Shown here piece after piece: positions 21,237 through 34,529 of a stretch of 64,000 nucleotides of DNA (the first letter of the stretch is position 1; the number at the start of each line of letters is the position of its first letter). The stretch covers positions 8,812 to 72,811 of the forward strand of contig JBIIEL010000004.1 of NCBI GenBank assembly GCA_044237845.1, written 5' to 3'. Made by a program: the position numbers and the translations under genes. This DNA comes from Rickettsiales bacterium. Lineage in GTDB: Bacteria; Pseudomonadota; Alphaproteobacteria; Rickettsiales; UBA3002. The notes beneath the pieces are model-generated. The model saw only the letters and a list, made by a program, of their open reading frames with translations, searched no databases and was not told where the DNA came from.

Positions 21237-21237
21237 G

Positions 21238-22011: not shown

Positions 22012-22016
22012 TTCTC

Positions 22017-22059
22017 TCGCTTCAAAGTCCCTCGCTGCGCTCGGTGTACTTTGAAGCGG
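22017..22059. repeat. Hairpin between the convergent pstB and gamma-CA genes (cgcttcaaagt / actttgaagcg)
   Basis: 11-bp perfect inverted repeat. The loop 'ccctcgctgcgctcggtgt' resembles the core motifs of the ~120-nt palindromic family. Confidence 0.5.
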
Positions 22060-22108
22060 TAATCATGAAGTCGCGTGCTCGGGGCGGCCCTCCGCGCGCG
22101 ATAGTTAT

Positions 22109-22636
22109 TTAGTGAGAAGGTTTATACTCCATCGCCAGTTCGACATAATGGCGGGCGGAGATGGGGATATAGGCGGCTTCTTCGGGGCTGACGGGGCGGA
22201 GCAGTTTGGCGGGGTTGCCTGCCCAGAGCTCGCCGGATTTGACCTGCTTGCGCGGGGTGATGAGCGCGCCCGCAGCGACAAATGCGCCGGATTCGACCAC
22301 CGCAAAATCCATCACCTTCGCGCCCATACCGACGAAGCAATCATCGGCGAGCGTGCAGGCATGCAGCAGCGCCTGATGGCCAATGGTGATGCCCGAGCCG
22401 ATGGTCGTCGGCCCCACCTCGCGCGTGACATGCACGACCGAGCCGTCTTGAATGTTGGTGCGCTCGCCAATGCGGATGGGCGCGACATCGCCGCGGATGA
22501 CGCAGCCGAACCAGACATTGGTGAACGCGCCGATATGCACGTCGCCGATCACCACCGCGCCCGGCGCAATCCACGCATCGCGGTGAATGGTGGGCATGAT
22601 GCCGTTATAGGGGAGGATGAGGGGGGCGTGGGTCAT
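22109..22636 (-). CDS. Gamma carbonic anhydrase family / hexapeptide-repeat protein
   Basis: Left-handed beta-helix hexapeptide repeats (VIGDVHIG, VWFGCVIRGD, IRIGERTNIQDGSVVH). Confidence 0.85.
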   Translation of the reverse strand: MTHAPLILPYNGIMPTIHRDAWIAPGAVVIGDVHIGAFTNVWFGCVIRGDVAPIRIGERTNIQDGSVVHVTREVGPTTIGSGITIGHQALLHACTLADDCFVGMGAKVMDFAVVESGAFVAAGALITPRKQVKSGELWAGNPAKLLRPVSPEEAAYIPISARHYVELAMEYKPSH

Positions 22637-23673
22637 GGGAATACCGCTGTGAGTGCGAGGTTGGTGGTTTCCGGCAAGCCGAACATGAGGTTGGCGTTTT
22701 GCAGCGCCTGACCGCTCGCGCCTTTCACCAGATTGTCGATGACGGACACAAGAATGAGTTCACCCGGCAGGCGCCCCTTGTGTACGGACATCACGCAGTG
22801 ATTGGTGCCGCGGACGTGGTGGGTGCTGGGGGCGCCGTTTTCAAGCACGGTGACGAAGGCTTCGCCTTGATAACGTTTTTGTAGTGCGCTGCGTGCGTCT
22901 TCCACCGTTTTGCCGGGGGCGAGGGTGGTATGGATCGTCGCCAGCATGCCGCGCGTCATGGGGATGAGATGCGGCGTGAAGGAGAGGGTGACAGGGTGTT
23001 TCGCCGCCGCGGCAAGCTGCTGCTCCATCTCGGCCATGTGGCGGTGATGGCCGATGCCGTAGGCGGAGACGCCGCCATCCAGCTCGGTGAACAGCAGCTC
23101 CTGCTTCGCGCTGCGCCCCGCGCCGCTGATGCCGGAGAGCGCGTTGACCACCGTGCCGGTGGGGGCAATGATATTCTCTTCGACCAGCGGTATTAAGGGA
23201 AGCAATGTGCAGGTCGGGTAGCAGCCCGGGTTCGCCACAAGGCGTGCCGCCTTGAGCGCATTTCTATCGAGTTCGGTGATGCCGTAGACGGCTTCTTTCT
23301 GGAGCGCGGGCGCGCGGTGTGCGTGGCCGTACCACTCTTCATAGGCGGCGACATTATGCAGGCGGAAATCGGCGGAGAGATCGACGATGCGCACATGCTG
23401 GGGCAGGCCGGCGATGATCTCTTGCGTGGTGCCATGCGGCAGGCAGCAGAAGACGAGGGCGACGCGCGTGAAATCCACCTCGGTATGTTTCACCAGCGCC
23501 GGAAGATTGCGCCCACGCAGATGGGGGTAGACCTGTTCGATGGGCTTGCCGGCTTGGCTATCGCCCGTCAGCGCGACGATCTCGAACACGGGGTGGCCGT
23601 GGAGCAGGCGCAGCAGCTCCGCGCCGGTATAGCCAGATGCGCCGAGGATGGCGGTCTTGATGGTTTTTGTCAT
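22633..23673 (-). CDS. argC: N-acetyl-gamma-glutamyl-phosphate reductase
   Basis: 'ILGASGYTGAELLRLL' Rossmann N-terminus and active-site 'ANPGCYPT'. Confidence 0.95.
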   Translation of the reverse strand: MTKTIKTAILGASGYTGAELLRLLHGHPVFEIVALTGDSQAGKPIEQVYPHLRGRNLPALVKHTEVDFTRVALVFCCLPHGTTQEIIAGLPQHVRIVDLSADFRLHNVAAYEEWYGHAHRAPALQKEAVYGITELDRNALKAARLVANPGCYPTCTLLPLIPLVEENIIAPTGTVVNALSGISGAGRSAKQELLFTELDGGVSAYGIGHHRHMAEMEQQLAAAAKHPVTLSFTPHLIPMTRGMLATIHTTLAPGKTVEDARSALQKRYQGEAFVTVLENGAPSTHHVRGTNHCVMSVHKGRLPGELILVSVIDNLVKGASGQALQNANLMFGLPETTNLALTAVFP

Positions 23674-23683
23674 ACACCCTCAC

Positions 23684-23720
23684 AAAGAAAAACCCCGGAA
23701 TCGCGTTTGCCATTCCGGGG
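23684..23720 (-). terminator. Rho-independent terminator after rpsI
   Basis: On the minus strand a 9-bp stem ccccggaat/attccgggg with a 10-nt loop is followed by TTTTTCTTTG. Confidence 0.75.
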
Positions 23721-23747
23721 TTGGTATGCTTTCCGAAAAGGAAACGA

Positions 23748-24191
23748 TTAACGTTTCGAGAATTGGAACGAACGGCGGGCTTTCGCCTTACCGTATTTCT
23801 TACGCTCGACCACACGGCTGTCGCGGGTCATGAAGCCGCTCTTACGCAGCGTTGGGCGGAAGGAAGGATCGTAGGCATCCAGCGCGCGGCTGATGCCATG
23901 ACGCACGGCACCGGCTTGGCCGGACAGACCGCCGCCAGTGACGGTGACGGTGACGTCAAATTTGTTCTCGCTCGCCAGCACAACGAAGGGCTGGTTGATG
24001 ATCATGCGCAGCACGGGACGCGCGAAGTATGTCTCGAGCGAACGACCGTTGACGGTGATTTTGCCGCTGCCACGCTTTACCCATACGCGGGCAGTAGCGT
24101 CTTTACGACGACCTGTGCCATACGCGCGACCGAGCTTGTCGATCTTCGGGGTGCGGGCTTCTTGGATTTCGATTTCTGCTGCCGTTGCCAT
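23748..24191 (-). CDS. rpsI: 30S ribosomal protein S9
   Basis: '[14 protein letters not shown]' and the C-terminal '[18 protein letters not shown]'. Confidence 0.95.
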
Positions 24192-24203
24192 GTTGTTACC
24201 TTA

Positions 24204-24665
24204 TTAGCGTGCGTTTTTTTCGTTGAAGGAAGCAAAGTCCACCAGCTTCGGCGACTGTGCGCTATGCGGGTGCTCGCTGCCGTTATAAACATGCAGATTC
24301 TTGAACTGTTTGCGTGCCAGCGGGCTGTCTTTTGGCAGCATGCGCTCGATCGCTTTCAGCATCACGCGCTCAGGGTGTTCACCCGAAAGGATATGCTCTG
24401 CCGAACGTTCCTTAATACCGCCCGCGTACCCGGTGTGGTAGTAATAGACTTTCTTGCCGCGCTTACGGCCGGTCAGCTTCACTTTGTCCGCATTGATGAT
24501 GACGACATTGTCGCCACAATCCATGTTCGGGGTGTAGCTTGGCTTCGTTTTGCCGCGCAGGACTTTCGCGACATAGCTAGCGAGACGGCCCAGAATAACG
24601 CCCTCGGCGTTGATCATAACCCATTCTTTTTTAATATCTTTCGGCGTTGCCGAGAACGTTTTCAT
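24204..24665 (-). CDS. rplM: 50S ribosomal protein L13
   Basis: '[27 protein letters not shown]' and '[12 protein letters not shown]'. Confidence 0.95.
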
Positions 24666-24757
24666 GACGTGCTCTTTTTATTGGAGTTTCTTCGATAAGG
24701 GTGGGCTTTCTAGTCGGCACGGCGCCTAGTGTCAACAAGGAAATGTAGTCATTTGCC

Positions 24758-24876
24758 TTAAGCATTTTCCATGGCTGCAAATGGGAAGCTCCTGCGCTTC
24801 CGCTGCGCATGTACTTTATGTACACTTGCGCAGCGGTTCTCGGATCGCCCCATTTGCAGCCATGGAAAATGCTTAA
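24758..24876. repeat. ~120-nt palindromic intergenic element with 28-bp perfect terminal inverted repeats
   Basis: 'ttaagcattttccatggctgcaaatggg' (24758-24785) is the exact reverse complement of 24849-24876. The 63-nt core is itself an imperfect hairpin (ccgctgcgcatgtac...gtacacttgcgcagcgg). Confidence 0.8.
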
Positions 24877-24893
24877 ATCAAACGACTACTCAC

Positions 24894-25667
24894 TCATCGG
24901 CCAAACGGGTCGCGTAGTTGGCTGGCAAGGTCGTCTGCAATCGGTGGGGCAACGCCGATGGGGTCCGGTGACTCGGCATGGGGGAAATAATAGGTGCCAA
25001 ACAGCCGATCATAGAACGCAAATGTGGGGGCAAAGTTCTTGTTCTGCCCCTCCGGCCGCCGCGTATGATGCCAGCGGTGAAACGATGGGCTGGAGACAAT
25101 GCCACGCAATGGCCCCAGTGCACAACGCAGGTTGGCATGGAGAAAGCCAGAGTAAAATAAAATGAAGGGGCCGGTATACAGCCCAATCTCGGGCGAGAAA
25201 CCGAGAAACATCATCGCAATAGCGACAGGCGTGTAATAGAGTATAAAGTCAACCGGGTGGAAGCGCGCGTAGCTCAGCCAGTCCAGTTCTTCGGAAGAAT
25301 GGTGAATACGGTGGAAGCGCCAAAGGTGGCGGCTATGCATCATGCGGTGCAGCCAGTAGCCCATAAAATCCGCAACGAGTAGCGCGAGCGGCACCTGTAT
25401 ATAGAGTGGTAAGGTCGCAAGGAAGCCTGGCTTGCTTAACGTGGCGCTGACAACGGCGATGGAAGTCATCAGCGCAAGCAACCCTGCCACCACCAGCGGA
25501 AACAACAGCGGATAGGTGAAATAATAGAGCATATCTGCCACCCAGCCGCGGCGGATGAGCCGTTGGCTTGGCACGACAGGTGCCAGCCGCGCGAGCAGCG
25601 CAAACAGGATGAACAGTCCAACAAACCACAGGCTGCGCGAGGTGATGAGGTCAAGAAGTGGATTCAT
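24894..25667 (-). CDS. Fatty acid hydroxylase / sterol desaturase superfamily membrane enzyme
   Basis: Three His boxes: 'HRMMH', 'HRIHH' and 'FHRWHH'. Multiple TM helices. It starts 9 nt downstream of the GT2 gene. Confidence 0.8.
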   Translation of the reverse strand: MNPLLDLITSRSLWFVGLFILFALLARLAPVVPSQRLIRRGWVADMLYYFTYPLLFPLVVAGLLALMTSIAVVSATLSKPGFLATLPLYIQVPLALLVADFMGYWLHRMMHSRHLWRFHRIHHSSEELDWLSYARFHPVDFILYYTPVAIAMMFLGFSPEIGLYTGPFILFYSGFLHANLRCALGPLRGIVSSPSFHRWHHTRRPEGQNKNFAPTFAFYDRLFGTYYFPHAESPDPIGVAPPIADDLASQLRDPFGR

Positions 25668-25676
25668 AACATACTC

Positions 25677-27113
25677 CTAGCTTGGTGTGCTGATGGCAGT
25701 GCGCACCATGTGGCCCCACCCCTTTTTCTTACGCAGGAACTCCCACCAGCCGATGACGCGCCAGAGATTGTTGACCTGGCGGTAGCCAAAATTCTCGACG
25801 ACTGAGATCAATGCGAGAATGGCAAGGTCGCGCGGGCTTGGGGCGCGGCGCAACTCCAGTTCTTCGAGAATGAGCGTATAGATGCTGATCGACACGCCAA
25901 ACATAAAAAACAGCGCTATATAGGCAAGCATCAACGGCGTGTTGAGCATGCCATACCACCAGAAAAGTGGGATCAGCAGATAGCCGAACGCCTCGGTGAG
26001 AGGCCCTAGTACATCCGTGATAAAGCTGTAGGGAATACCCATCATACCAATTTTGCCGTAGCGTGGACGGAACATCATTCCTCGGTAGCGGAAGAATACC
26101 TCAAGTGCACCACGTTGCCACCGCCGCCGCTGACTGCCAAGGATATGCCAGGTTTCTGGCGCCTGCGTCCAACAGACGGACTCTGGCACATAGCACAATT
26201 TATAGGGGCGTTTTTGATCGCGCAGATAGCGATGCATCTTGAGGACCATCTCGTAATCTTCACCCACTGTGTCATCGGAAAAGCCGCCCACATCCACCCA
26301 GATATCGCGGCGGAAGACTCCAAATGCACCGGAGATAATGCTCAACATTCCCCAATGGCTCCATGCCGTACGTGCCATCAGGAATGAGCGGAGATATTCG
26401 AGCGTCTGCACCAGCGGCAGGAATTGCCTGGAAAGCGCAGCTTTAACAACCTGTCCCTGACGCACTGTGCATCCGTTGAGAATACGAATTGTGCCACCGA
26501 CAGCAACCATGTGTTTCGGGTCTTCCATAAATGGGCGCACGACGCCAAACAACGACTCCACTTCGAGTAGCGAGTCTGCATCCACCACACAAAACAGCGG
26601 TGTTCGACAATAATTGATTGCGGCATTAATCGCGTCGGCACGACCGCCATTTTCTTTGTCGACCACCAACAACTGCGGATAGAGTGCTGAACCATAAAGC
26701 CCGCGCGCGGCAGCGTGATGCACGGCCTGTTCATGTGCCCGCACCACGGGCGTCATTGAAAATGCTTCGATGAGCACCTGTAAAGTCCGATCCTTTGAAC
26801 CATCATTCGCTACAATAATGGCTACTTCAGGATAGCTTAGTGACAGCATGGAGCGAATACTCTCCACGATCGTTGTCTCTTCATTGTAGGCGGGAATCAT
26901 CACGCTGATGGGGATAGCCACATCCGACATCATCATCTGCCAGGCATAGTCGCTGTCATCGGCCTGTTTGCGCGCGCGCAGCTCTTTCCACGCGGCGGGC
27001 ACTTGCAGAAGATAGACAAGGTTCTGAATCATCCCCACGGATAAGATCGCCCAGGAAATCGCCTGAACCCAGAGTGTGTGCTCTTGCAAAAACAGGCTGA
27101 AGCTGCTGCTCAT
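25677..27113 (-). CDS. Processive family-2 glycosyltransferase (PgaC/NodC/cellulose-synthase-like polysaccharide synthase)
   Basis: 'IPAYNEE', 'ANDGSKD', 'VVDADS', 'TVGEDYE' and 'QRRRWQRG' (Q-x-x-R-W) motifs. TM helices occur at both the N- and C-termini. Confidence 0.85.
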   Translation of the reverse strand: MSSSFSLFLQEHTLWVQAISWAILSVGMIQNLVYLLQVPAAWKELRARKQADDSDYAWQMMMSDVAIPISVMIPAYNEETTIVESIRSMLSLSYPEVAIIVANDGSKDRTLQVLIEAFSMTPVVRAHEQAVHHAAARGLYGSALYPQLLVVDKENGGRADAINAAINYCRTPLFCVVDADSLLEVESLFGVVRPFMEDPKHMVAVGGTIRILNGCTVRQGQVVKAALSRQFLPLVQTLEYLRSFLMARTAWSHWGMLSIISGAFGVFRRDIWVDVGGFSDDTVGEDYEMVLKMHRYLRDQKRPYKLCYVPESVCWTQAPETWHILGSQRRRWQRGALEVFFRYRGMMFRPRYGKIGMMGIPYSFITDVLGPLTEAFGYLLIPLFWWYGMLNTPLMLAYIALFFMFGVSISIYTLILEELELRRAPSPRDLAILALISVVENFGYRQVNNLWRVIGWWEFLRKKKGWGHMVRTAISTPS

Positions 27114-28186
27114 ACCAGTCCCCCGCGCTCGGCAAGCACTTGCTGGGCGATAACCCCCCTATTGCCTTCGCGACTCGCGATTGCTTGCAGTAGGGCGATG
27201 CCCTGATCACCATAGCGGTGAAGCGCTTCTGCCGCACGGAACCGTACCCACCAATCCGAATCGTCAAGCCGTGCCACCAGCGGTGCGATGGCGGCGGGCA
27301 AGTGGAATCCGCCCAACGCTTGCGCGGCCTGCACGCGCACAGCTTGCTCTGGCGAGGTAAGATGTGGCAGAATCGCTTCCCCGGCGCGGCTGTCGCCTAG
27401 CTTGCTGAGTGCTGTAATCGCCGCCGCACAGATGTCGCTGTGTGGATCGTCGAGTAATGCCACCAGCGTATCTACTGCTTCAAGCACACCGAGTGTGCCA
27501 AGCGCATGAATCCCCGCGAGGCGCACTTCCAGTACCGCTTCCGATTGTACCAATGCACACAATGAAGGAACCACCGGCGCGCCAAAACGCTGCAATACAT
27601 CGGCCAGCATGAGCATATTTGTGCGACCTGAGCGACCAAGGCTCGCGAGGATATGGTCCAGATGCTGGGTTGCCCCACGCATGGCAAGACCGCGTAACGC
27701 GGTGAGCTGCACATACATATCCGTTGCGCTTACCTGCTCAAGCAAATGGGAGAGTGAGGCTTCATCCGTACAATGCGCGAACAAAGTTAGCGTACGCAAG
27801 CGCTCGGATTTGCTGCCCGTACGCAGGTTTGTGCGTAGCAAGGTTATAAGGTCCCACGCCTCAAACATTGCAATGATTCGGTTAGCATCCTGCCCGCGTA
27901 CGTTGCGCAATAAGGTCAGCGCGATGTTCATCACCACAGGCACATCAACGGCAGTCAGAGGTGGCAGGCTTGTCTTCGTTGGCGCCACCGGCGCGTTGAT
28001 CGCTGCATGAAAACAACGTGTCCAATGCTGGGTATGGTGATCCGCATGGCGCAACTTCCGCACAAACAGCACGCGTTTGATAATCAGCCCCGCCATCACC
28101 ACAAAAGCGAGCGCGGCAAGAATCAGCGATCCGTACCACAGCGCGGAGAGTAGCGTTGGCTCAGAACCGGTAGCTGATACTGGCAT
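27110..28186 (-). CDS. Membrane-anchored HEAT-repeat protein
   Basis: One N-terminal TM helix, then repeated helical pairs 'EVRLAGIHALGTLG', 'DICAAAITALSKLGD', 'AVRVQAAQALGG' and 'WWVRFRAAEALHRYG'. The start is set at ATG 28186 and is uncertain. The stop overlaps the GT2 start (ATGA). Confidence 0.7.
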   Translation of the reverse strand: MPVSATGSEPTLLSALWYGSLILAALAFVVMAGLIIKRVLFVRKLRHADHHTQHWTRCFHAAINAPVAPTKTSLPPLTAVDVPVVMNIALTLLRNVRGQDANRIIAMFEAWDLITLLRTNLRTGSKSERLRTLTLFAHCTDEASLSHLLEQVSATDMYVQLTALRGLAMRGATQHLDHILASLGRSGRTNMLMLADVLQRFGAPVVPSLCALVQSEAVLEVRLAGIHALGTLGVLEAVDTLVALLDDPHSDICAAAITALSKLGDSRAGEAILPHLTSPEQAVRVQAAQALGGFHLPAAIAPLVARLDDSDWWVRFRAAEALHRYGDQGIALLQAIASREGNRGVIAQQVLAERGGLV

Positions 28187-29324
28187 TATATATGTCGCGG
28201 ATGTAAGAGTTTTGGCGGTCGTCACGCGCGTAACCCACACGCAATGTGTTTACAGGCGTCACGTCATACGCCGCACCACCGAACCAGGTAGTGGTGTCAA
28301 CTGTCACTCCGGCGACCGTATCGGGCGCAGAGGCATAGCCTGCATAAAACCGCAGTCCATCCGTCACCGTGCCGTCGAGACGACCATCCCAACCGTAGGC
28401 TTTTCTCTCGCTCGACTGGTCAACGATAATCCGCCGCCCGGCGACACTCCAACCATCCGCAACGTCGAGCTTCAGTCCGGGGTTGAGATTGAGTACGCGC
28501 GTGTCGGCATAGGTATCGTAGCGCGCATCTATCGTCGCCCAAAGCGGCGTTGTACTATCCATCACTCGCATGGCGCCACCACCTGCCACCCGGTTGCGCG
28601 GACGAAAATTGGCATGCGATACCAATGAAAGTGCGGCATAGCCATTAACAGTTGGTGAGAACTGGTGGTCAGCACCGAGTTCCACTTCAGCGTCACGCGC
28701 GTTGAACTGGTCGTAGCGTGTGAGCTTGCCATGCAGCGCCGTTTTGCGCGCGTCGAGAAAATGTGTCAGCTGCAAAAATTCCTGGTTCCAATTCGTTTGC
28801 GAGCGGCGCGAGAACTGGCTTAGCTCTAACCCTGTATCTACCTGCCATGGCAGGAAAGCTTCCTGAGCCGCGGCAGGCTTTGCTGCAGCCACACGGGCAG
28901 CCCGCGTCGCTTTCTGTGCACGCAACAATCCATCGCGCGCGTCCTGATAATCCGGGTGCTGGGTGAGAATGGCAGCATAGTGTTTTTCCGCTGTGGCGAA
29001 ATGGCCCTGATGATAGGCAACCGAGCCGCGCAGCAACATCGCATCCGGGTTGGTTTGCTGGGCTTGCGGCAACGCGTTCAGAGCGGCTTCCGCTTCCCTA
29101 TATTTTCCTGCCCAATCGAGCACGCGGATGCGTGCGAGCATCAGTTCGCCATCCTCCGGCGATTCCGCCAGCGCCTTTTTCAGCAATTCAAGTGCGGCGC
29201 CGTATTTTTTCTGCTCTGCCAGTTTACGGCTTTCGGCAACCGTCCCCATCGTGTTCAGGGCGAACGCTGCAGGTGCCAGCATCACCACGCTTATCATTGC
29301 TGCTACGAGTTGTGCCTTGCTCAT
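28161..29324 (-). CDS. Outer-membrane protein: N-terminal TPR repeats plus C-terminal YaiO-like beta-barrel
   Basis: Signal peptide, TPR-like helices (KYGAALELLKKAL..., GKYREAEAAL, GHFATAEKHYAAIL), then alternating beta-strands ending in '...ASISYRF' with a terminal aromatic residue. Confidence 0.7.
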   Translation of the reverse strand: MSKAQLVAAMISVVMLAPAAFALNTMGTVAESRKLAEQKKYGAALELLKKALAESPEDGELMLARIRVLDWAGKYREAEAALNALPQAQQTNPDAMLLRGSVAYHQGHFATAEKHYAAILTQHPDYQDARDGLLRAQKATRAARVAAAKPAAAQEAFLPWQVDTGLELSQFSRRSQTNWNQEFLQLTHFLDARKTALHGKLTRYDQFNARDAEVELGADHQFSPTVNGYAALSLVSHANFRPRNRVAGGGAMRVMDSTTPLWATIDARYDTYADTRVLNLNPGLKLDVADGWSVAGRRIIVDQSSERKAYGWDGRLDGTVTDGLRFYAGYASAPDTVAGVTVDTTTWFGGAAYDVTPVNTLRVGYARDDRQNSYIRDIYNASISYRF

Positions 29325-29325
29325 C

Positions 29326-30459
29326 TTATACGCTCGCCGTCGCGGATTCCTGCATCAGACGCATACATCGTGCGACGACTTCCTCCGGATTGAATGGCTT
29401 GATGATGTAATCCTCTGCCCCGGTATTCAGCCCCTCCAACACGTTACTGCTGTAGTGCCGTGCAGTGAGGAACACGACGGGAATATGCGCCAGCGCTTTG
29501 GTTTCCTTCATCATCCGCAGCAACGCCAATCCCTCAATGCCTGGCATCATGCGGTCGAGCAACGCAAGGCTAACCGGATTTTTGAGAAGAAATTTCCACG
29601 CCTCGGTGCCGTCTACCGTCATCGATACCTTGCAGCCAGCATGGCGGAATTTATGCGCCAGTAACTCGCGCACGGATTCATCATCGTCTACAATCAGAAT
29701 ATGCCGCCCAAGGCGCTGCAAGCGCCGTTTGATTTTCTCTGACACTACCGTGGGAGAGAATGGTTTGGTGATGTAATCTACTGCACCCGCCATCAGCCCT
29801 TGCATCATTTCCTCGGGCCGATCACTCGCGGTGATCATCACCACCGGAATCCCCGAAATATCGGGCATCGCACGGATTTCTTCCAGCAGCTTGAGGCCGT
29901 GCGTGCCTTCTGGCATCCAGTCATCCAGCAGCACAAGATCGGGCTTTTCCGCCCGCATCAACGCCAGTGCTTCGTGACTGTTTGTGGCTTTGAGTATTAC
30001 CGCATCGCGTGCGAATAGCCCGTGCAGAATGGCGTGCACTTCATCGTCGTCATCCACTACCAGCATTTTCGGCAATGCGTGGCCAGCGACCTCTGCCTCT
30101 TCATGCAATTCGACTGCGGCTGCAGGCGAGGAACTTTCCTTAGCTAGTTCGCAGGCGGCGAGCAATGCGCGCAGATACGACACTTCTTTTGGGGACGCCT
30201 CTTCTGCCGGATGCATGAGCAATTCTTCAAGCGCACGTCCAGCGATGCTGATCTCGGGAAAGCCGTATGTCGCACCCGTGCCAGACAATTTATGCGCCAG
30301 CGCTTTCATTTCCATCCGCGCGTTTTCAGGCCACGCGCCGACATTGCGCTCTGCCAGAAAGCGCTTCAATACCGCCACACGATTAGCAAGCTGCGCCACA
30401 TAGCGCGCACGCAGCACCTGCATCTTGGATTCTACATCATGGCTTGCACTATCTGGCAT
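29326..30459 (-). CDS. Phosphorelay protein: Hpt domain plus two receiver (REC) domains
   Basis: Hpt 'ALAHKLSGTGATYGF'. REC1 'MLVVDDDDEVH...DLVLLDDWMPE...VVMITA'. REC2 'ILIVDDDESVR...LALLDRMMPGIEG...VVFLTA'. Confidence 0.85.
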   Translation of the reverse strand: MPDSASHDVESKMQVLRARYVAQLANRVAVLKRFLAERNVGAWPENARMEMKALAHKLSGTGATYGFPEISIAGRALEELLMHPAEEASPKEVSYLRALLAACELAKESSSPAAAVELHEEAEVAGHALPKMLVVDDDDEVHAILHGLFARDAVILKATNSHEALALMRAEKPDLVLLDDWMPEGTHGLKLLEEIRAMPDISGIPVVMITASDRPEEMMQGLMAGAVDYITKPFSPTVVSEKIKRRLQRLGRHILIVDDDESVRELLAHKFRHAGCKVSMTVDGTEAWKFLLKNPVSLALLDRMMPGIEGLALLRMMKETKALAHIPVVFLTARHYSSNVLEGLNTGAEDYIIKPFNPEEVVARCMRLMQESATASV

Positions 30460-30841
30460 GGTAATTCTCCCAGAGTTCAGTCAGTTGGGCAGACAGTAAC
30501 ATGGGATCGAAGGGTTTAGCAATCACGCCGATCGCTCCCTGCTGTAAATAGCGCGTCACATCCGCCGTCTGCACCCGCGCGGTCATGAAAACAACCGGGA
30601 CAGAAGCCAACGCCGGATTTTGTTGTAGAGCTTTCAACGTGGCAGTGCCATCCATTTCCGGCATCATCACGTCGAGCAAAATAATATCCGGAGCGATCGT
30701 CTCTGCCTTCGCGACTGCCTCGGCACCGCTATGCAAACAGGTCACTGTAAAATCGCCGACCGTGGCGAGGGACATCTCCGCCACTTCGAGAATATCTGCC
30801 TCGTCATCGACACAAAGCACATGCTGCAATTTACGCGTCAT
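30449..30841 (-). CDS. Single-domain response regulator (CheY-like)
   Basis: 'VLCVDDEADI...DIILLDVMMPEMDG...VVFMTA...KPF'; 130 aa with no output domain. Confidence 0.9.
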   Translation of the reverse strand: MTRKLQHVLCVDDEADILEVAEMSLATVGDFTVTCLHSGAEAVAKAETIAPDIILLDVMMPEMDGTATLKALQQNPALASVPVVFMTARVQTADVTRYLQQGAIGVIAKPFDPMLLSAQLTELWENYHAR

Positions 30842-31973
30842 CCGCGTTCTCCCCCATCATAGGAAACTCTACCCAGAAAGTCGCTCCCTCGCCAGGCGGG
30901 GAATCAAAACCAATCGTGCCGCCCATATGCTCGACCAGCGCTTTACTGATATGCAGCCCCAGACCAGAGCCGCCCTTTCTGCGTGTGAGCGACGAATCCG
31001 CTTGTACAAAGCGGCCAAAAATACGCTCACGGAATTCATCGGAAATTCCGGAGCCGCAATCCTTCACCGCGACCCGCACCTGGTCGCCACACGACTCCAC
31101 CCGAACAGTAACCACGCTATGTGCCGGCGAAAATTTAGCCGCATTCGAGAGCAGGTTCGACAAAATCTGAATGAAGCGCGCACCATCCAGATTCGCCACG
31201 AAATCACCCTCTTCAGCGATGATCTCGACCGATACGTCGTATTTCGTTGCGTAGCCATGGGTTGCATCCACCGCCTGCTGAGTGAGGGCAAGAATCGATT
31301 CCGGCTGCATTTCAAGCCGCATATGGCCGGAGGCGATTTTATCGATATCAAGAATATCGTTAATCAGCACAATCAGCCGTTCGCTGTTGCTATGGGCGAT
31401 CGTAATTAACCGTCGGACTTTCTCTGGCAGCGCATCCGCCATCGTGCCAACAACCAGCCCCAGCGCACCGCGGATGGAGGTGAGCGGTGTGCGCAATTCA
31501 TGGCTCACCATCGAAATAAATTCATTCTTCATGTTCTCGAGCTGCTTGCGTTGTACCGCATATTGCATCGCGCGTTTGATCGATTGGCTGTTAATGTTAC
31601 TTTTGAGTAGCCAGTCCTGTGCTCCACATTCCACGGCAGAGAGAGCCATTTCTTCTTCCGCCACCCCGCTCACCGGACCGGTGACCATAATAATCGGCAA
31701 GCTGGGTGCCACCGACTGCAGACTGAGCAGCCCGTTAAACCCGATCGTATCCGGCAGGGTAAAATCGAGCAGCACCACGTCGAACGCTTCTGTTTCGAGC
31801 AGATGAATCGCTTCGCGCAGCAACCGCGTTTTGTGCAGGCTGTAATGTATAAAGCCGCTCTGCGCGAGCGCTGCCTCAATCAGTGCGATATCGCTCGCGG
31901 AATCCTCCACCAGCAATATTCGCAAACTATTCGCTAACGTAACTTTTTCCATGCGCGCACCCAATCGCGTCAT
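30831..31973 (-). CDS. Soluble REC-HisKA-HATPase histidine kinase (receiver-input kinase)
   Basis: N-terminal REC 'ILLVEDSASD...DVVLLDFTLPD...IIMVTG'. H-box 'MVSHELRTPL', N-box 'LSNLLSNAAKF', G-boxes 'DCGSGI' and 'GGSGLGLHISK'. No TM or sensor domain. Confidence 0.85.
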   Translation of the reverse strand: MTRLGARMEKVTLANSLRILLVEDSASDIALIEAALAQSGFIHYSLHKTRLLREAIHLLETEAFDVVLLDFTLPDTIGFNGLLSLQSVAPSLPIIMVTGPVSGVAEEEMALSAVECGAQDWLLKSNINSQSIKRAMQYAVQRKQLENMKNEFISMVSHELRTPLTSIRGALGLVVGTMADALPEKVRRLITIAHSNSERLIVLINDILDIDKIASGHMRLEMQPESILALTQQAVDATHGYATKYDVSVEIIAEEGDFVANLDGARFIQILSNLLSNAAKFSPAHSVVTVRVESCGDQVRVAVKDCGSGISDEFRERIFGRFVQADSSLTRRKGGSGLGLHISKALVEHMGGTIGFDSPPGEGATFWVEFPMMGENADDA

Positions 31974-32598
31974 GCTAAATTGATTCCGTTGGCTTCTCTA
32001 GGGATAAGGCTGCACGACAGGAATTTCGCCTACAAAAGCGGGCTAGGCGTGTACATTACACCACAAATGAGGCCAAAGTCGCACATGGCAGGGTGCGTTT
32101 CATCGCCACGCGATTATGACCAGAACAAGCCAACGTATCAGGCCACCAGAATCGCCACCCACACTATTGCGGCATTCACGAGTGAAATTGCTAGCAGGAT
32201 TTTATTTTTAAAGCCAATTTTTGCCTACAAATCTAATCGCTTTTTAAGAAGCCAAGAATCTTTGCTCATCTACATGGAAAATTTTTTAAATCTGCTGGTA
32301 TCGCTATCTTGACCCGCACATTCGCCTCTAGAGATAACCCTCCGCAACAGGCTCCATTCCGCCCTAGCAGTGATAGTCTCCAGTCATTCTGGCAATAAAA
32401 AGCCTGCCCAAGGCGCGGCTGAGGGTGCGGGTAGCTAAAATGACAGGAGGCATATGGGAAACTGGTGGTCGGCAGCGGAGTCGGAGCGAACCAATTAGTG
32501 GTATTCGTAAACGCCATGAACGAGATGGGCAAGATATTTGAGAGCCATGTAAAACTTGAGAAAAAGGCGTTCAAGTTTGAACCTATGCTACTTGCAGC

Positions 32599-33030
32599 TT
32601 AATCCCGTGGCGTGATGTTGTCGCGCCGCTTGAGAATAATATCCAAAATGCCGCTGCGGATTTGATCGAATAAGCGCGGCGGCAAAAAGCCATAGGTCAT
32701 TTCACCCGGCTTACCGGGAACAGGTCGCAGATCATAGCCCGGCCAGACGAACTGATTCACCTCATCGAGGATTACCCATGAGCGATCATCATCCAGCCCT
32801 AAATGCTGCTTCACTCGCAGGGGAATTTCTAAGCAGGGAGTGCCGGGGGATGGTGGTGAATGCGTGATGGGCGCAACGGTGACTTGCGTGCCGCTATCGT
32901 GCTTCTCCACCGACAACACGATGACGCACGGACGGCTCTTTCGGCCTTCCTCCTGACCTGCCTCAAACTCCCTGCGCCATAAAAAGGCGTAGGAAATCAC
33001 GAGGCCGGGTTCTGGATTTGGAATGGCCAT
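32599..33030 (-). CDS. PemK/MazF-like toxin-fold protein (putative type II toxin)
   Basis: 'PEPGLVISYAFLWRRE...GRKSRPCVIVLSV' resembles the N-terminal SH3-like barrel of MazF/PemK. It lies 6 nt downstream of a Phd/YefM-like gene. Confidence 0.5.
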   Translation of the reverse strand: MAIPNPEPGLVISYAFLWRREFEAGQEEGRKSRPCVIVLSVEKHDSGTQVTVAPITHSPPSPGTPCLEIPLRVKQHLGLDDDRSWVILDEVNQFVWPGYDLRPVPGKPGEMTYGFLPPRLFDQIRSGILDIILKRRDNITPRD

Positions 33031-33036
33031 GGTGGA

Positions 33037-33303
33037 TTAGTCGTCGAGCAGGCTGTTCAGGTGATCGTGCTTTGCGTCCATTTTACTGGCGGCTATCGCC
33101 TGAATGGTTTCTTCGGATAGCCCTTCTACTGCAAACGCTTTGGGCATCTGTGCCTTCATCCGCAGATAGGCCTCATAGTCTGAACCTGACACGAAATAAC
33201 CTGTCACGCGATCATGGCTGGTGACGGCCACCGGCTCACGCTGCGCGGCTTCACGGTAACGGCCAAAGTTCTTTGAAAACTCGCTGGAAGGAACAGTAAT
33301 CAT
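33037..33303 (-). CDS. Phd/YefM-family antitoxin
   Basis: 'MITVPSSEFSKNFGRYREAAQREPVAVTSHDRVTGYFVSGSDYEAYL'. ATG 33303 is preceded by an AGGAGA ribosome-binding site. Confidence 0.7.
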   Translation of the reverse strand: MITVPSSEFSKNFGRYREAAQREPVAVTSHDRVTGYFVSGSDYEAYLRMKAQMPKAFAVEGLSEETIQAIAASKMDAKHDHLNSLLDD

Positions 33304-33521
33304 AAGCGTATCTCCTATTTCCCTTATTATACCCAAATTACAGATAATACGCAAGATGTTCTATGCTCCGCCTCCCAGTTACCTCAGCGGAGTCGGATAG
33401 AACCGGAAAAATTAGCCTTATAATTCAGCGCTTTTGAACGATTATAACGCAAAATCAGGACAAAATCCTAGAACCGCCTCAACCAGCAGTAGGTCTACAT
33501 CTGAATTTTTGAAAGGGAGAT

Positions 33522-33597
<76 letters not shown>

Positions 33598-33739
33598 ACG
33601 CGCAATGCTGCGCCCCGAATCGGGCAGGGAGGGTGGTAGACGAATCATCCGCCCCCGTCAACGGCAAAAATAATGGGGTGGAAACGGATTTCTTCAGTTT
33701 CGCGTCATAGGGGGGGCGTATAGGTGGTTTTCGACAACA

Positions 33740-33769
33740 TAGACGACCTTATAGACGATCTTTAGACAG
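33740..33769 (+). promoter_or_regulatory. Three direct heptamer repeats TAGACGA / TAGACGA / TAGACAG at 11-12-nt spacing, a candidate response-regulator site
   Basis: Read directly, 40-70 nt upstream of the ATG at 33810. Confidence 0.3.
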
Positions 33770-33809
33770 CTTCTTTCACTCCCATTCCACCATACATTCA
33801 GGAGATTTT

Positions 33810-34529
33810 ATGACGATGCGTAAATCACTGTTACTGGCCTCCGCGGCATTTACCCTTATCGGTGCGGGCGCGGCGGTTGCCGAATCAGCCCCGGCCGATA
33901 TCGCGCGTGACCCAAAGGTGGCCGCTGCCGATGCGGCGCACCAGAAGCTGCACTCGCTGCGCGATAACCGTCAGGAAATCATCGGCGACCGGAGGGAGCT
34001 GCATGAGGACCGGAAGGAGCTGCGTGATGCGCGCCGTGAAGGCAATGCCGATGCGGTAGCTGCAGAGAAAGTGGAAGTCAAACAAGGCCGCGAAGAGCTG
34101 CGCGACGATATGCGCGCGCGCCATGAAGAGCGCAAAGAATTGCGTGATGACCGTCGTGAGCACCGCCAGGAGATGCACGGCAAGCATCAGGAAAAACGCG
34201 CAGAGCATCGCGAGAAGCGTCAGGACCGTCGTGAACATCTGCGTCCCGGGCATATCCCAGCAGGCGGCCCCGAAACACAAACCAGACCAAAGGTGGACGT
34301 GAATGCGCCAACGACCAAACCGCCAGTGGTGGGTCTGGGTAGCGGTGGTCCTGCACCGATGGAAGGTCGTCCAATGGAAATGCCACCACGCCCACGTCCG
34401 GAGCCGGTGAAAGAATTTCCACGCCCAGCCGTCACCCGGCAAGGTGACGCATCCGCACCCACCGCGGTGATCAAAGGCGCGCCCGTATCGACCGATGCGC
34501 CAACCGCCGATGATGCTGCCGCGCACTAA
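33810..34529 (+). CDS. Secreted protein with highly charged Arg/Glu/Asp/His helical repeats and a Pro-rich C-terminal half
   Basis: Signal peptide 'MTMRKSLLLASAAFTLIGAGAAVA'. Repeats 'RRELHEDRKELRDARRE' and 'RHEERKELRDDRREHRQE'. RBS 'aggaga'. Confidence 0.7.
   Translation: MTMRKSLLLASAAFTLIGAGAAVAESAPADIARDPKVAAADAAHQKLHSLRDNRQEIIGDRRELHEDRKELRDARREGNADAVAAEKVEVKQGREELRDDMRARHEERKELRDDRREHRQEMHGKHQEKRAEHREKRQDRREHLRPGHIPAGGPETQTRPKVDVNAPTTKPPVVGLGSGGPAPMEGRPMEMPPRPRPEPVKEFPRPAVTRQGDASAPTAVIKGAPVSTDAPTADDAAAH

What the first reader, a model, noticed from the sequence alone, without database searches (positions are those of the whole stretch)
24894..31973. Seven-gene operon coupling a synthase-type exopolysaccharide machine (GT2 + HEAT-repeat protein + TPR/YaiO-like barrel + fatty-acid-hydroxylase-type enzyme) to a dedicated phosphorelay
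All seven genes are on the minus strand with overlaps or gaps of no more than 9 nt: 30831/30841, 30449/30459, 29324/29326, 28161/28186, ATGA at 27110-27113, and 25667/25677.

The order is REC-HK, CheY-like, Hpt-REC-REC, TPR+beta-barrel OMP, TM-anchored HEAT-repeat protein, processive GT2 (QRRRW motif), then a three-His-box membrane hydroxylase/desaturase.

Synthase-dependent EPS systems (cellulose, PNAG, alginate, Pel) pair an inner-membrane GT2 with a TPR/porin export component. They are typically gated by c-di-GMP receptors.

This operon differs in several ways:
- No PilZ, GGDEF or EAL domain is visible.
- No deacetylase or periplasmic modifying enzyme of the usual kinds is present.
- A HEAT-repeat protein and a lipid-type hydroxylase appear instead.
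- The whole machine is fused transcriptionally to a phosphorelay.

From memory, E. coli carries a cryptic yaiO / yaiP (GT2) neighbourhood of unknown function. This locus could be an elaborated relative. I am not aware of a characterised system with this composition.
Basis: partly seen in the sequence, partly recalled or inferred. Interest (0 to 1): 0.75.

Follow-up and report, generated by a model that had tools for sequence, protein, structure and literature searches.

The report
Phosphorelay-linked HEAT–GT2 polysaccharide synthase operon
This is a real, tightly packed operon for an uncharacterised but widespread polysaccharide-making and exporting machine. Its enzyme always travels with a HEAT-repeat partner and usually with its own two-component signalling genes instead of the usual c-di-GMP switch.

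Summary

**Conserved core.** Comparison with 80 related genome loci and 11 annotated plasmid loci gives these results:
- The core is a PgaC-like processive GT2 synthase plus a membrane-anchored cytoplasmic HEAT-repeat protein. They were adjacent in 76 of 80 loci, and also in haloarchaea, Deinococcus, Firmicutes and Bacteroidota.
- Diderm bacteria add a TPR + 14-strand YaiO-type outer-membrane barrel (73 of 80 loci).
- Most loci place an output-less receiver gene directly upstream. In two haloarchaea its end overlaps the start of the HEAT gene by 4 or 8 nt.
- A histidine kinase, a CheY-like protein and an Hpt domain are usually nearby.

The signalling genes are therefore a conserved part of the system, not a chance neighbour.

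- The fatty-acid-hydroxylase gene is not part of the system. It is absent from all 80 related loci, and none of its 20 homolog loci carries a system gene.
- The link to E. coli yaiO/yaiP holds only for the barrel family, not for the synthase.

**Most likely mechanism (inferred).** A His-Asp-His-Asp relay phosphorylates the terminal receiver, which docks on the cytoplasmic HEAT–GT2 complex and switches on polymer synthesis and export.

**Open points.** The product sugar is unknown. No paper describing this system was found.

**Classification.** New variant of the synthase-dependent exopolysaccharide systems.

The parts
30831..31973 (-). Soluble histidine kinase, 380 aa, with architecture REC(19-126)-HisKA-HATPase_c. 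It has the H-box His158 and the receiver Asp70. It has no transmembrane or sensor domain other than the receiver.
   Evidence: Pfam; motif positions; no hydrophobic segment. The catalytic core is 41-57% identical to the kinases next to the related clusters. Those kinases carry PAS, CHASE, MASE1, 5TMR-LYT or CHASE3 sensors and C-terminal REC domains.
30449..30841 (-). CheY-like single-domain response regulator, 130 aa (Asp57, Thr87, Lys109). It is a conserved partner of the kinase.
   Evidence: Pfam Response_reg, 88 bits. It is 54% identical to the single REC encoded next to the kinase in Mesorhizobium and Sphingomonas loci.
29326..30459 (-). Hpt-REC-REC protein, 377 aa, with Hpt His56, REC1 Asp179 and REC2 Asp302. 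It has no output domain. REC2 corresponds to the stand-alone receiver that sits directly upstream of the synthase genes in other lineages.
   Evidence: Pfam Hpt plus 2x Response_reg; motifs. The synthase-adjacent single RECs of Mesorhizobium and Sphingomonas match REC2 best, narrowly for Mesorhizobium (87.8 bits, against 87.0 to the window CheY-like protein). The fused Hpt-REC-REC form is found in 11 related loci.
28161..29324 (-). Outer-membrane exporter candidate, 387 aa. It has a Sec signal peptide (AFA at 20-22), three TPR-like repeats (about 25-147) and a 14-stranded YaiO-family beta-barrel (160-386).
   Evidence: TIGR04390, 80 bits against a cutoff of 32, and TPR_19. AlphaFold model with pLDDT 89 and 14 strands. 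The Foldseek top hit is E. coli BcsC (E 3.7e-11) with PelBC at rank 13; the barrel alone superposes best on OmpG. A homologous ORF is present in 73 of 80 related loci.
27110..28186 (-). HEAT-repeat co-subunit, 358 aa. It has one N-terminal transmembrane helix (about 18-36) followed by a cytoplasmic alpha-solenoid (82-353). A near-invariant D-x-D-W-W-V-R-F-R-A-A-E-A-L motif lies near the C-terminus.
   Evidence: HEAT_2, 95 bits. AlphaFold pLDDT 90. Positive-inside rule holds in 17 of 17 homologs. The gene lies immediately upstream of the GT2 in 76 of 80 loci. The same holds in archaea, Deinococcus, Planococcus, Bacteroides and Legionella. The ATGA overlap with the GT2 start suggests translational coupling.
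25677..27113 (-). Processive membrane GT2 synthase, 478 aa. Catalytic motifs are D104, D178-x-D180, E285-D286 and Q328RRRW332. It has one N-terminal and several C-terminal hydrophobic helices.
   Evidence: Pfam GT2 families. PgaC_IcaA model scores 138 bits against a cutoff of 422. 26% identity to E. coli PgaC. The family profile matches BcsA, hyaluronan synthase and chitin synthase structures only remotely. It forms a distinct clade with 35-67% identity from archaea to Proteobacteria.
24894..25667 (-). FA_hydroxylase-family membrane di-iron enzyme, 257 aa, with three His boxes. It probably rides on the same transcript but is not a conserved part of the system.
   Evidence: Pfam, 105 bits. OlsE model scores 131 bits against a cutoff of 475. 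The gap to the GT2 stop is 9 nt and a TAGGAG ribosome-binding site is present. It is absent from all 80 related loci, and none of 20 homolog loci carries system genes.
24745..24889 (-). 145-nt near-perfect hairpin immediately after the last gene. It is a possible transcript end or an element boundary.
   Evidence: RNA fold -97.8 kcal/mol, z = -13 against shuffles. The arms occur only here in the window. There is no T-tract, so it is not a classical intrinsic terminator.
31974..32598 (-). 625-bp non-coding region upstream of the kinase gene. It is the presumed promoter or regulatory region.
   Evidence: No ORF with a domain hit lies here. Only consensus-level sigma-70 matches were found, and their number is no greater than in shuffled sequence.

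Best explanation
The locus encodes a synthase-dependent extracellular polysaccharide system of an uncharacterised, widespread class.

**Proposed machine**
- The inner-membrane GT2 polymerises a nucleotide sugar and threads the chain across the membrane, as PgaC and BcsA do.
- It works as a complex with a single-pass membrane protein whose HEAT-repeat solenoid lies in the cytoplasm.
- In diderm bacteria, a TPR + 14-strand YaiO-type barrel takes the chain through the periplasm and outer membrane.

**Proposed control**
- Activity is set by a dedicated His-Asp-His-Asp phosphorelay rather than by c-di-GMP.
- The route is kinase His158, then a receiver Asp (REC1 or the CheY-like protein), then Hpt His56, then REC2 Asp302.
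- The terminal receiver has no output domain. It is proposed to dock, when phosphorylated, on the cytoplasmic HEAT-GT2 face and to switch synthesis on or off.
- The CheY-like protein may act as a phosphate sink or a second output.

**Shown:** gene content, domains, topology signals and conserved gene neighbourhood.

**Inferred:** complex formation, direction of phosphate flow, the post-translational mode of control, and export through the barrel.

The product sugar is unknown. A beta-linked Glc or GlcNAc homopolymer is the default guess, because PgaC is the nearest characterised enzyme. The hydroxylase gene is a lineage-specific passenger.
For: - **Domains and motifs** are intact in all proteins.
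- **Family profile.** The GT2 family profile aligns remotely with the membrane-embedded processive synthases BcsA, hyaluronan synthase and chitin synthase (E 2e-3 to 2e-9), ranking alongside non-processive GT2 enzymes.
- **Neighbourhood in 80 related loci.** Homologous ORFs: GT2 80, HEAT 76, OMP 73, REC 67, kinase 48, separate Hpt 17, fused Hpt-REC-REC 11. With enough flank: HEAT 64/67, REC 64/67, OMP 57/67, kinase 51/67.
- **Outside Proteobacteria.**
  - Two haloarchaea keep RR-HEAT-GT2, with RR/HEAT overlaps of 4 and 8 nt.
  - Emticicia has RR, a HEAT-like protein, GT2, a small TPR protein and a YaiO barrel.
  - Deinococcus, Planococcus, Bacteroides and Legionella keep HEAT-GT2.
- **HEAT topology.** The solenoid is cytoplasmic by the positive-inside rule in 17 of 17 homologs, the same compartment as the receiver and the GT-A domain.
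- **Coupling.** The ATGA overlap of HEAT and GT2 suggests translational coupling.
- **Exporter.** The OMP model has TPR plus a 14-strand barrel and its top structural match is BcsC.
- **Sensors.** Sensor domains of the linked kinases differ between lineages (PAS, CHASE, MASE1, 5TMR-LYT, CHASE3) while the downstream genes stay the same. This is the pattern expected for a fixed output with niche-specific inputs.
- **Other domains.** No c-di-GMP domain and no DNA-binding domain occurs in any of the seven proteins.
Against: - No experiment or complex prediction links the receiver to HEAT or GT2.
- Several lineages lack an adjacent receiver (Deinococcus, Planococcus, Legionella, Bacteroides). Phospho-control is therefore not obligatory for the synthase.
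- The most conserved HEAT motif (DWWVR) is present in receiver-less lineages and absent in the receiver-containing haloarchaea. It cannot be the receiver-binding site.
- The barrel has 14 strands, against 16-18 in known polysaccharide porins, and the TM-scores to BcsC and PelB are low (0.4).
- No polymer-modifying enzyme or hydrolase is encoded in the window, unlike the Bcs, Pga, Alg and Pel systems.
- PgaCD binds c-di-GMP without any recognisable domain, so c-di-GMP control cannot be excluded from sequence.
- The window kinase has only a receiver as its input, so the true signal source lies elsewhere.
Confidence: 0.6

Rival explanations
1. The machine is the same, but control is indirect. The relay ends in a partner encoded elsewhere (a transcription factor, a diguanylate cyclase or an anti-sigma-type switch). 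The HEAT protein is only a structural co-subunit that completes the membrane channel, as PgaD does. The receiver never touches the synthase.
For: - Single-domain receivers commonly act through unlinked partners (established knowledge of two-component systems).
- Several lineages run HEAT-GT2 without an adjacent receiver.
- The GT2 has few predicted transmembrane helices, and the HEAT protein adds one.
Against: - The receiver gene sits directly against the structural genes in 64 of 67 proteobacterial loci.
- In two haloarchaeal loci its stop overlaps the HEAT start. This is typical of subunits made together.
- No DNA-binding or cyclase gene is conserved in the neighbourhood.
Confidence: 0.25
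2. It is simply a divergent pga-type locus. The product is poly-beta-1,6-GlcNAc, made and exported as in E. coli, with the usual c-di-GMP control supplied by unlinked genes.
For: - PgaC/IcaA is the best-scoring named family (138 bits).
- PgaC is the closest E. coli enzyme (26% identity, E 1e-29).
- The exporter combines TPR and a barrel, as PgaA does.
Against: - The score is far below the PgaC equivalog cutoff of 422.
- The family carries its own insertions and C-terminal motif, and its members are 35-52% identical from archaea to Proteobacteria but only 26% identical to PgaC.
- There is no PgaD.
- There is no PgaB-type deacetylase, which PgaA-dependent export requires (established knowledge).
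- The PgaA model scores 21 bits against a cutoff of 367.
- The Legionella relative is flanked by a nucleotide-sugar dehydrogenase and epimerases, which hints at a different sugar in at least some members.
Confidence: 0.12
3. The GT2 does not make a secreted polymer. It glycosylates a membrane lipid or makes a periplasmic glucan, and the co-transcribed fatty-acid-hydroxylase-type enzyme modifies the lipid part. The outer-membrane protein has another role.
For: - The hydroxylase lies 9 nt after the GT2 with its own ribosome-binding site.
- The D,D,D,QxxRW signature also occurs in lipid glycosyltransferases (established knowledge).
Against: - The hydroxylase is absent from 80 of 80 related loci, and its 20 homolog loci lack all system genes.
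- The TPR + barrel gene is conserved in diderms, and its best structural match is a polysaccharide exporter.
- The family profile aligns remotely with polymer synthases (BcsA, hyaluronan synthase) through the interface-helix region.
Confidence: 0.05
4. The signalling genes and the synthase genes are unrelated neighbours that happen to be packed together in this genome.
For: Nothing beyond the general frequency of two-component genes in alphaproteobacterial genomes.
Against: - The association recurs across Hyphomicrobiales, Caulobacterales, Sphingomonadales, Rhodobacterales, Rhodospirillales, gammaproteobacterial MAGs, Bdellovibrionales, Bacteroidota and haloarchaea.
- Gene order is rearranged between lineages, but the same orthologous receiver and kinase families are kept.
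Confidence: 0.03

Closest known systems
PNAG system PgaABCD of E. coli (PgaC/IcaA synthase family)
   Same: - An inner-membrane processive GT2 with the D,D,D,QxxRW signature.
- A small single- or double-pass membrane partner needed alongside the synthase (PgaD there, the TM-HEAT protein here).
- An outer-membrane protein that combines TPR repeats with a beta-barrel.
   Different: - Only 26% identity to PgaC, with family-specific insertions.
- The partner is a 358-aa cytoplasmic HEAT solenoid, not PgaD.
- There is no PgaB deacetylase/hydrolase.
- The barrel is of the YaiO type with 14 predicted strands and only about 3 TPRs, against the 16-strand PgaA with a long TPR domain.
- Control appears to come from a phosphorelay instead of c-di-GMP.
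Bacterial cellulose synthase BcsA-BcsB-BcsC
   Same: - The same overall logic of a synthase-dependent system.
- BcsC is the best structural match of the exporter model (E 3.7e-11).
- BcsA aligns with the family profile across the catalytic and interface-helix region.
   Different: - There is no PilZ domain and no BcsB.
- The exporter is far smaller.
- Sequence similarity to BcsA is marginal (E about 1e-9 with a profile).
E. coli cryptic yaiO-yaiX-yaiP-yaiS cluster
   Same: The barrel falls in the YaiO family (TIGR04390), and a GT2 gene lies nearby in both.
   Different: - E. coli YaiO has no TPR part and shows no pairwise similarity to this protein.
- YaiP matches only the N-terminal half of the GT2 (27%, E 9e-12) and lacks QRRRW in the alignment.
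- The E. coli cluster has a deacetylase and an acyltransferase but no HEAT protein and no signalling genes.
NfrA-NfrB exopolysaccharide system of E. coli
   Same: A GT2 synthase is paired with a TPR-containing outer-membrane protein.
   Different: - No detectable similarity of the GT2 to NfrB or of the exporter to NfrA (BLASTP, E <= 0.01).
- NfrB is annotated as c-di-GMP-activated; by recall, this is through a C-terminal MshEN domain. That domain is absent here.
Multi-step phosphorelays (hybrid kinase, Hpt, receiver), e.g. ArcB, TorS or RcsCDB
   Same: All four phospho-acceptor sites (His, Asp, His, Asp) are encoded, with intact consensus residues.
   Different: - The terminal receiver has no DNA-binding output.
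- The domains are distributed unusually: REC-kinase, a free CheY-like protein and Hpt-REC-REC.
- The relay genes are embedded in the operon of the presumed target machine.

Membership tests
Synthase-dependent exopolysaccharide secretion systems (Bcs, Pga, Alg, Pel type) | Inner-membrane processive glycosyltransferase with D, DxD, (T/G)ED and QxxRW motifs and membrane helices | tested here: met
   D104, D178xD180, E285-D286 and Q328RRRW332 are present, with N- and C-terminal hydrophobic helices. The profile aligns remotely with BcsA, HAS and chitin synthase.
Synthase-dependent exopolysaccharide secretion systems (Bcs, Pga, Alg, Pel type) | TPR-containing periplasmic scaffold joined to or paired with an outer-membrane beta-barrel porin | tested here: met
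   Signal peptide, TPR_19 and a 14-strand barrel in a model with pLDDT 89. Top Foldseek hit is BcsC, with PelBC at rank 13. Pore function is not testable here.
Synthase-dependent exopolysaccharide secretion systems (Bcs, Pga, Alg, Pel type) | c-di-GMP receptor on or next to the synthase (PilZ, PgaD, PelD) | tested here: not met
   No PilZ, GGDEF, EAL or PgaD/PelD-like domain occurs in any of the seven proteins. Cryptic binding sites cannot be excluded from sequence.
Synthase-dependent exopolysaccharide secretion systems (Bcs, Pga, Alg, Pel type) | Periplasmic polymer-modifying enzyme or glycoside hydrolase in the operon | tested here: not met
   None is present in the window operon. A no-Pfam 440-560 aa ORF family accompanies 16 related loci but has no homolog in the window.
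PgaC/IcaA poly-beta-1,6-GlcNAc synthase (TIGR03937 equivalog) | Score at or above the curated equivalog cutoff (422 bits) | tested here: not met
   138 bits; 26% identity to E. coli PgaC.
PgaC/IcaA poly-beta-1,6-GlcNAc synthase (TIGR03937 equivalog) | Partners PgaD, PgaB (deacetylase) and PgaA | tested here: not met
   No BLASTP hit to PgaD or PgaA. The PgaA model scores 21 bits against a cutoff of 367. No deacetylase domain is present.
YaiO family outer-membrane beta-barrel (TIGR04390 / PF19413) | Match to the family model above the curated cutoff | tested here: met
   TIGR04390 scores 80.3 bits against a cutoff of 32 over residues 160-387. Pfam YaiO scores only 17.8 against 23.9 in this protein. 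The Sphingomonas and Mesorhizobium orthologs score 56 and 34 bits. RefSeq names the Mesorhizobium ortholog a YaiO family protein.
E. coli yaiO-yaiP cluster (as an orthologous system) | GT2 orthologous to YaiP, with YaiS deacetylase and YaiX acyltransferase as neighbours | tested here: not met
   YaiP matches at 27% over 222 aa (E 9e-12), weaker than PgaC. No YaiS- or YaiX-type gene lies in the operon.
His-Asp-His-Asp multi-step phosphorelay | HisKA/HATPase kinase with H-box His, receiver Asp, Hpt His and terminal receiver Asp | tested here: met
   His158; Asp70, Asp57 and Asp179; Hpt His56 in AHKLSG; Asp302. Actual phosphotransfer is not testable here.
OlsE ornithine-lipid hydroxylase (NF052566 equivalog) | Score at or above the curated cutoff (475 bits) | tested here: not met
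   131 bits. It belongs only to the broad FA_hydroxylase / 'sterol desaturase family'.

The most novel reading that the evidence does not exclude
REC-HEAT-GT2 may be a previously unrecognised class of polysaccharide synthase, shared by Bacteria and Archaea. In it, a phosphorylated stand-alone receiver binds a cytoplasmic HEAT-repeat co-subunit and gates polymerisation directly. That would be a phosphorylation-based counterpart of c-di-GMP/PilZ gating, with the YaiO-type TPR-barrel as its dedicated outer-membrane exit in diderms.
Probability: 0.35. Interest if true: 0.8.

Novelty: new variant of a known kind. Interest (0 to 1): 0.65.

Why it matters
Known synthase-dependent exopolysaccharide systems (cellulose, PNAG, alginate, Pel) are switched on after translation by c-di-GMP.

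**What this would add**
- A widespread system that keeps the same synthase-plus-exporter logic but carries its own phosphorelay and a HEAT-repeat partner would add a second way of gating biofilm-matrix synthesis.
- It would give a first functional context to the YaiO barrel family.
- It would assign a role to hundreds of generically annotated 'GT2 / HEAT repeat / response regulator' gene trios. These occur in rhizobia, caulobacters, sphingomonads, Legionella, Bacteroides and haloarchaea, several of them on plasmids.

**Why it is testable**
- Cultivable carriers exist, including Mesorhizobium ciceri WSM1271, Asticcacaulis biprosthecium C19, Sphingomonas jeddahensis and Erythrobacter aureus.
- The idea can therefore be tested directly with standard genetics and biochemistry.

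Tried and rejected
- **Literature.** Nine full-text searches used YaiO, yaiP, HEAT repeat with glycosyltransferase, response regulator or polysaccharide, synthase-dependent, single-domain response regulator, and 'YaiO family'. None found a paper on this gene set. The hits were E. coli PCR markers, strain names or unrelated HEAT proteins (checked).
- **Family size.** A HEAT-family profile search of 1.84 billion representatives was swamped by giant multi-HEAT proteins and gave no usable estimate.
- **Gene fusions.** ORFs of 812-863 aa in L030, L052 and L074 looked like HEAT-GT2 fusions (Rosetta-stone evidence). They have no HEAT domain and are long-ORF artefacts of high-GC DNA.
- **HEAT fold search.** Foldseek on the HEAT model returned only designed alphaRep, importin and PP2A-type solenoids and gave no functional lead.
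- **Sequence search of the PDB.** It found no close solved relative for the GT2, HEAT or exporter proteins.
- **FAH as a component.** Rejected on two-way absence of association.
- **Promoter and terminator scans.** They gave counts no higher than in shuffled sequence, so they neither support nor contradict a single transcript.
- **Failed call.** One homolog search failed on time-out and was repeated.

Full report
**1. The observation**

Seven ORFs lie head to tail on the minus strand at the coordinates given:

| Gene | Coordinates | Size |
|---|---|---|
| Kinase | 30831-31973 | 380 aa |
| CheY-like | 30449-30841 | 130 aa |
| Hpt-REC-REC | 29326-30459 | 377 aa |
| Outer-membrane protein | 28161-29324 | 387 aa |
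| HEAT protein | 27110-28186 | 358 aa from the ATG |
| GT2 | 25677-27113 | 478 aa |
| FA_hydroxylase | 24894-25667 | 257 aa |

- A longer GTG ORF for the HEAT gene reaches 28240. An independent gene call on the source metagenome contig gives the same genes and the same HEAT start. Homologs also begin 'MPxSA', as the ATG form does.
- The junctions are -11, -11, +1, -26, -4 (ATGA) and +9 nt.
- Upstream lies a 625-bp non-coding stretch. Downstream lies a 145-nt hairpin (-97.8 kcal/mol, z = -13), followed by rplM and rpsI.
- Simple promoter and terminator scans found no more sites than in shuffled sequence. 'One transcript' therefore remains an inference from packing.

**2. The parts**

- *Kinase.* The architecture is REC-HisKA-HATPase, with His158 and Asp70. 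It has no hydrophobic segment and no other sensor domain.
- *CheY-like protein.* It has the full acceptor set (Asp57, Thr87, Lys109).
- *Hpt-REC-REC protein.* It has Hpt (His56 in AHKLSG) and two complete receivers (Asp179, Asp302). None of the three receiver proteins has an output domain.
- *Outer-membrane protein.* It has a Sec signal, TPR repeats and a C-terminal domain that matches the YaiO barrel model TIGR04390 (80 bits against a cutoff of 32).
  - An AlphaFold model built on 23 homologs (pLDDT 89) shows about three TPR pairs and a 14-strand barrel.
  - Its best structural match in the PDB is E. coli BcsC, with PelBC also listed. The barrel alone superposes best on the 14-strand OmpG, and TM-scores are modest.
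- *HEAT protein.* The model (pLDDT 90) is one long N-terminal helix followed by a solenoid of about nine helical pairs.
  - In all 17 family members the residues before the membrane helix carry 0-1 Lys/Arg and those after it carry 3-8. The solenoid is therefore cytoplasmic.
- *GT2.* It carries D104, D178xD180, E285-D286 and Q328RRRW332.
  - Its best named family is PgaC/IcaA, at 138 bits against a cutoff of 422.
  - It is 26% identical to E. coli PgaC and 27% identical to the N-terminal half of YaiP. It has no detectable similarity to NfrB.
  - A family profile reaches BcsA, hyaluronan synthase and chitin synthase structures only remotely.
- *Last gene.* It is an FA_hydroxylase-family protein with three His boxes and is far below the OlsE cutoff.

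**3. Conservation**

This is the decisive evidence.

- The GT2 has thousands of homologs. The nearest is 79% identical. The next group, at 55-67%, comes from Alphaproteobacteria and a few other phyla, and all are named generically.
- Eighty genome loci were fetched with 10-kb flanks. They were searched with the seven window proteins, and their ORFs were clustered.
- Homologous ORF families were present as follows:

| Family | Loci out of 80 |
|---|---|
| GT2 | 80 |
| HEAT | 76 |
| OMP | 73 |
| Single receivers | 67 |
| Kinase | 48 |
| Separate Hpt gene (usually convergent just downstream of the GT2) | 17 |
| Fused Hpt-REC-REC | 11 |

- Among the 67 loci with at least 4.5 kb upstream, 64 have the HEAT gene directly upstream of the GT2. 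A receiver lies upstream in 64, the OMP between them in 57, and a kinase nearby in 51.
- The Mesorhizobium arrangement is hybrid kinase, CheY, REC, YaiO-OMP, HEAT and GT2, with a convergent Hpt. RefSeq annotates it this way on plasmid pMESCI01.
- Orthology is specific.
  - The window CheY-like protein is 54% identical to the kinase-linked CheY of Mesorhizobium and Sphingomonas.
  - The receiver next to their synthase genes matches the window's REC2 best. For Mesorhizobium the margin over the window's CheY-like protein is under 1 bit.
- Sensor domains of the kinases differ widely: PAS, CHASE, MASE1, 5TMR-LYT and CHASE3. In the window the only input domain is a receiver.

**4. Beyond Proteobacteria**

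A translated search of annotated plasmids found 32-41% identical GT2s with the same partners.

| Organism | Arrangement |
|---|---|
| Salinirubellus sp. and Haloarcula halophila (haloarchaea) | Response regulator, HEAT, GT2; RR/HEAT overlaps of 4 and 8 nt; kinases nearby |
| Emticicia (Bacteroidota) | Response regulator, weak-HEAT protein, GT2, small TPR protein, YaiO barrel, LTA-synthase-family gene |
| Deinococcus radiophilus | TPR protein, HEAT, GT2 |
| Planococcus | Unknown 689-aa protein, HEAT, GT2 |
| Bacteroides finegoldii | HEAT, GT2 |
| Legionella adelaidensis | Sugar dehydrogenase, epimerase, YaiO barrel, HEAT, GT2, epimerase |
| Erythrobacter aureus | Response regulator, TPR/OMP, HEAT, GT2 |

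- An alignment shows that the family shares insertions and a C-terminal ENFGYRQ...WG.M.R motif that PgaC and YaiP lack.
- HEAT-GT2 is therefore the invariant pair, the barrel is the diderm addition, and the receiver is a frequent but not universal third member.

**5. The hydroxylase**

- No homolog occurs within 10 kb of the GT2 in any of the 80 loci.
- Its 20 nearest metagenomic homolog loci (at most 45% identical) contain no system gene.
- Plasmid homologs are annotated 'sterol desaturase family protein'.
- It is best read as a lineage-specific passenger at the operon's end.

**6. Mechanism**

*What the data show.* The locus encodes a processive GT2, a cytoplasmic membrane-anchored HEAT partner made from an overlapping reading frame, a TPR-barrel outer-membrane protein, and a complete set of His-Asp-His-Asp acceptor sites. 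All of these are conserved as neighbours.

*What I infer.*
- HEAT and GT2 form the synthase complex.
- The chain leaves through the barrel.
- Phosphate flows from the kinase to REC1 or CheY, then to Hpt, then to REC2.
- REC2 has no output domain and is conserved beside the structural genes even in archaea. I propose that it acts directly on the cytoplasmic HEAT-GT2 face.

*Main caveats.*
- There is no interaction evidence.
- Receiver-less lineages exist.
- The most conserved HEAT motif does not track receiver presence.
- The barrel is small.
- c-di-GMP binding without a recognisable domain cannot be excluded.

The product is unknown. PgaC-like ancestry suggests a Glc or GlcNAc homopolymer. The absence of a deacetylase argues against classical dPNAG, and the Legionella context suggests that sugars may differ between members.

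**7. Comparison and novelty**

- The system works like the Bcs, Pga and Pel synthase-dependent systems. It meets their synthase and TPR-barrel criteria.
- It fails the c-di-GMP-receptor and modifying-enzyme criteria, and it fails the PgaC equivalog test.
- It shares only the barrel family with the E. coli yaiO-yaiP cluster.
- Nine literature searches found no description of it. RefSeq names the parts generically.
- I rate it a new variant of a known kind, with interest 0.65.

**8. Setting**

- The block from about 24.7 to 34 kb has 51-58% G+C, against 62-64% on both sides.
- It ends near a tRNA-Ala gene and a Phd/PemK toxin-antitoxin pair.
- Several relatives are plasmid-borne.
- This fits a horizontally mobile cassette.

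Noticed in passing
window 24745-24889: A 145-nt near-perfect hairpin lies between the hydroxylase stop and rplM. It has 29-bp outer arms plus an inner stem and folds at -97.8 kcal/mol (z = -13). The arms occur nowhere else in the window and no T-tract follows. It could be a transcript-end or stability element, or the edge of an inserted element.
   Followed up: partly
window about 24700-34000: The operon sits in a block of lower G+C (0.51-0.58, against 0.62-0.64 in the flanks). One side is bounded by rplM and the hairpin. The other side carries a Phd/PemK-type toxin-antitoxin pair (33037-33354 and 32599-33030) and tRNA-Ala(TGC) at 33522-33597. This looks like a horizontally acquired island.
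   Followed up: partly
L015:5870-7195, L017:5158-6774, L023:5163-6851, L044:4630-6327 and 12 other related loci: A 440-560 aa ORF family with no Pfam or PDB match accompanies the cluster in 16 related loci, usually upstream of the receiver gene. It has no homolog in the window. It could be a lineage-specific accessory, perhaps the missing hydrolase or modifying enzyme.
   Followed up: partly
L094 (Legionella adelaidensis plasmid) and L090 (Emticicia plasmid): The Legionella HEAT-GT2-YaiO cluster is flanked by a nucleotide-sugar dehydrogenase, two epimerase/dehydratases and an alpha/beta hydrolase. The Emticicia cluster ends with an LTA-synthase-family gene, the enzyme class of the cellulose pEtN transferase BcsG (the BcsG link is from memory, not tested here). 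Members may therefore make different or decorated polymers.
   Followed up: no
window 42011-46507 and 47816-50176 (+ strand): Two large ORFs (1498 and 786 aa) have no Pfam match except EF-hand-like calcium-binding motifs near the C-terminus. They may be secreted or surface proteins. An AcrB-type RND pump and an outer-membrane factor follow at 51790-56701.
   Followed up: no
L003:11606-20632 (- strand); L084:12934-19850: In two close relatives the cluster lies next to very large or cadherin/RTX-type repeat proteins. One is a 3008-aa ORF in an alphaproteobacterial MAG. The others are Cadherin_5/Big_9/HemolysinCabind proteins in Asticcacaulis biprosthecium. This hints at a shared adhesion context.
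   Followed up: no
window 19980-24665: The housekeeping neighbours are pstA-like (DUF3333 + BPD_transp_1), pstB-like ABC ATPase, a hexapeptide transferase, argC-type semialdehyde dehydrogenase, rpsI and rplM. None is related to polysaccharide synthesis.
   Followed up: yes
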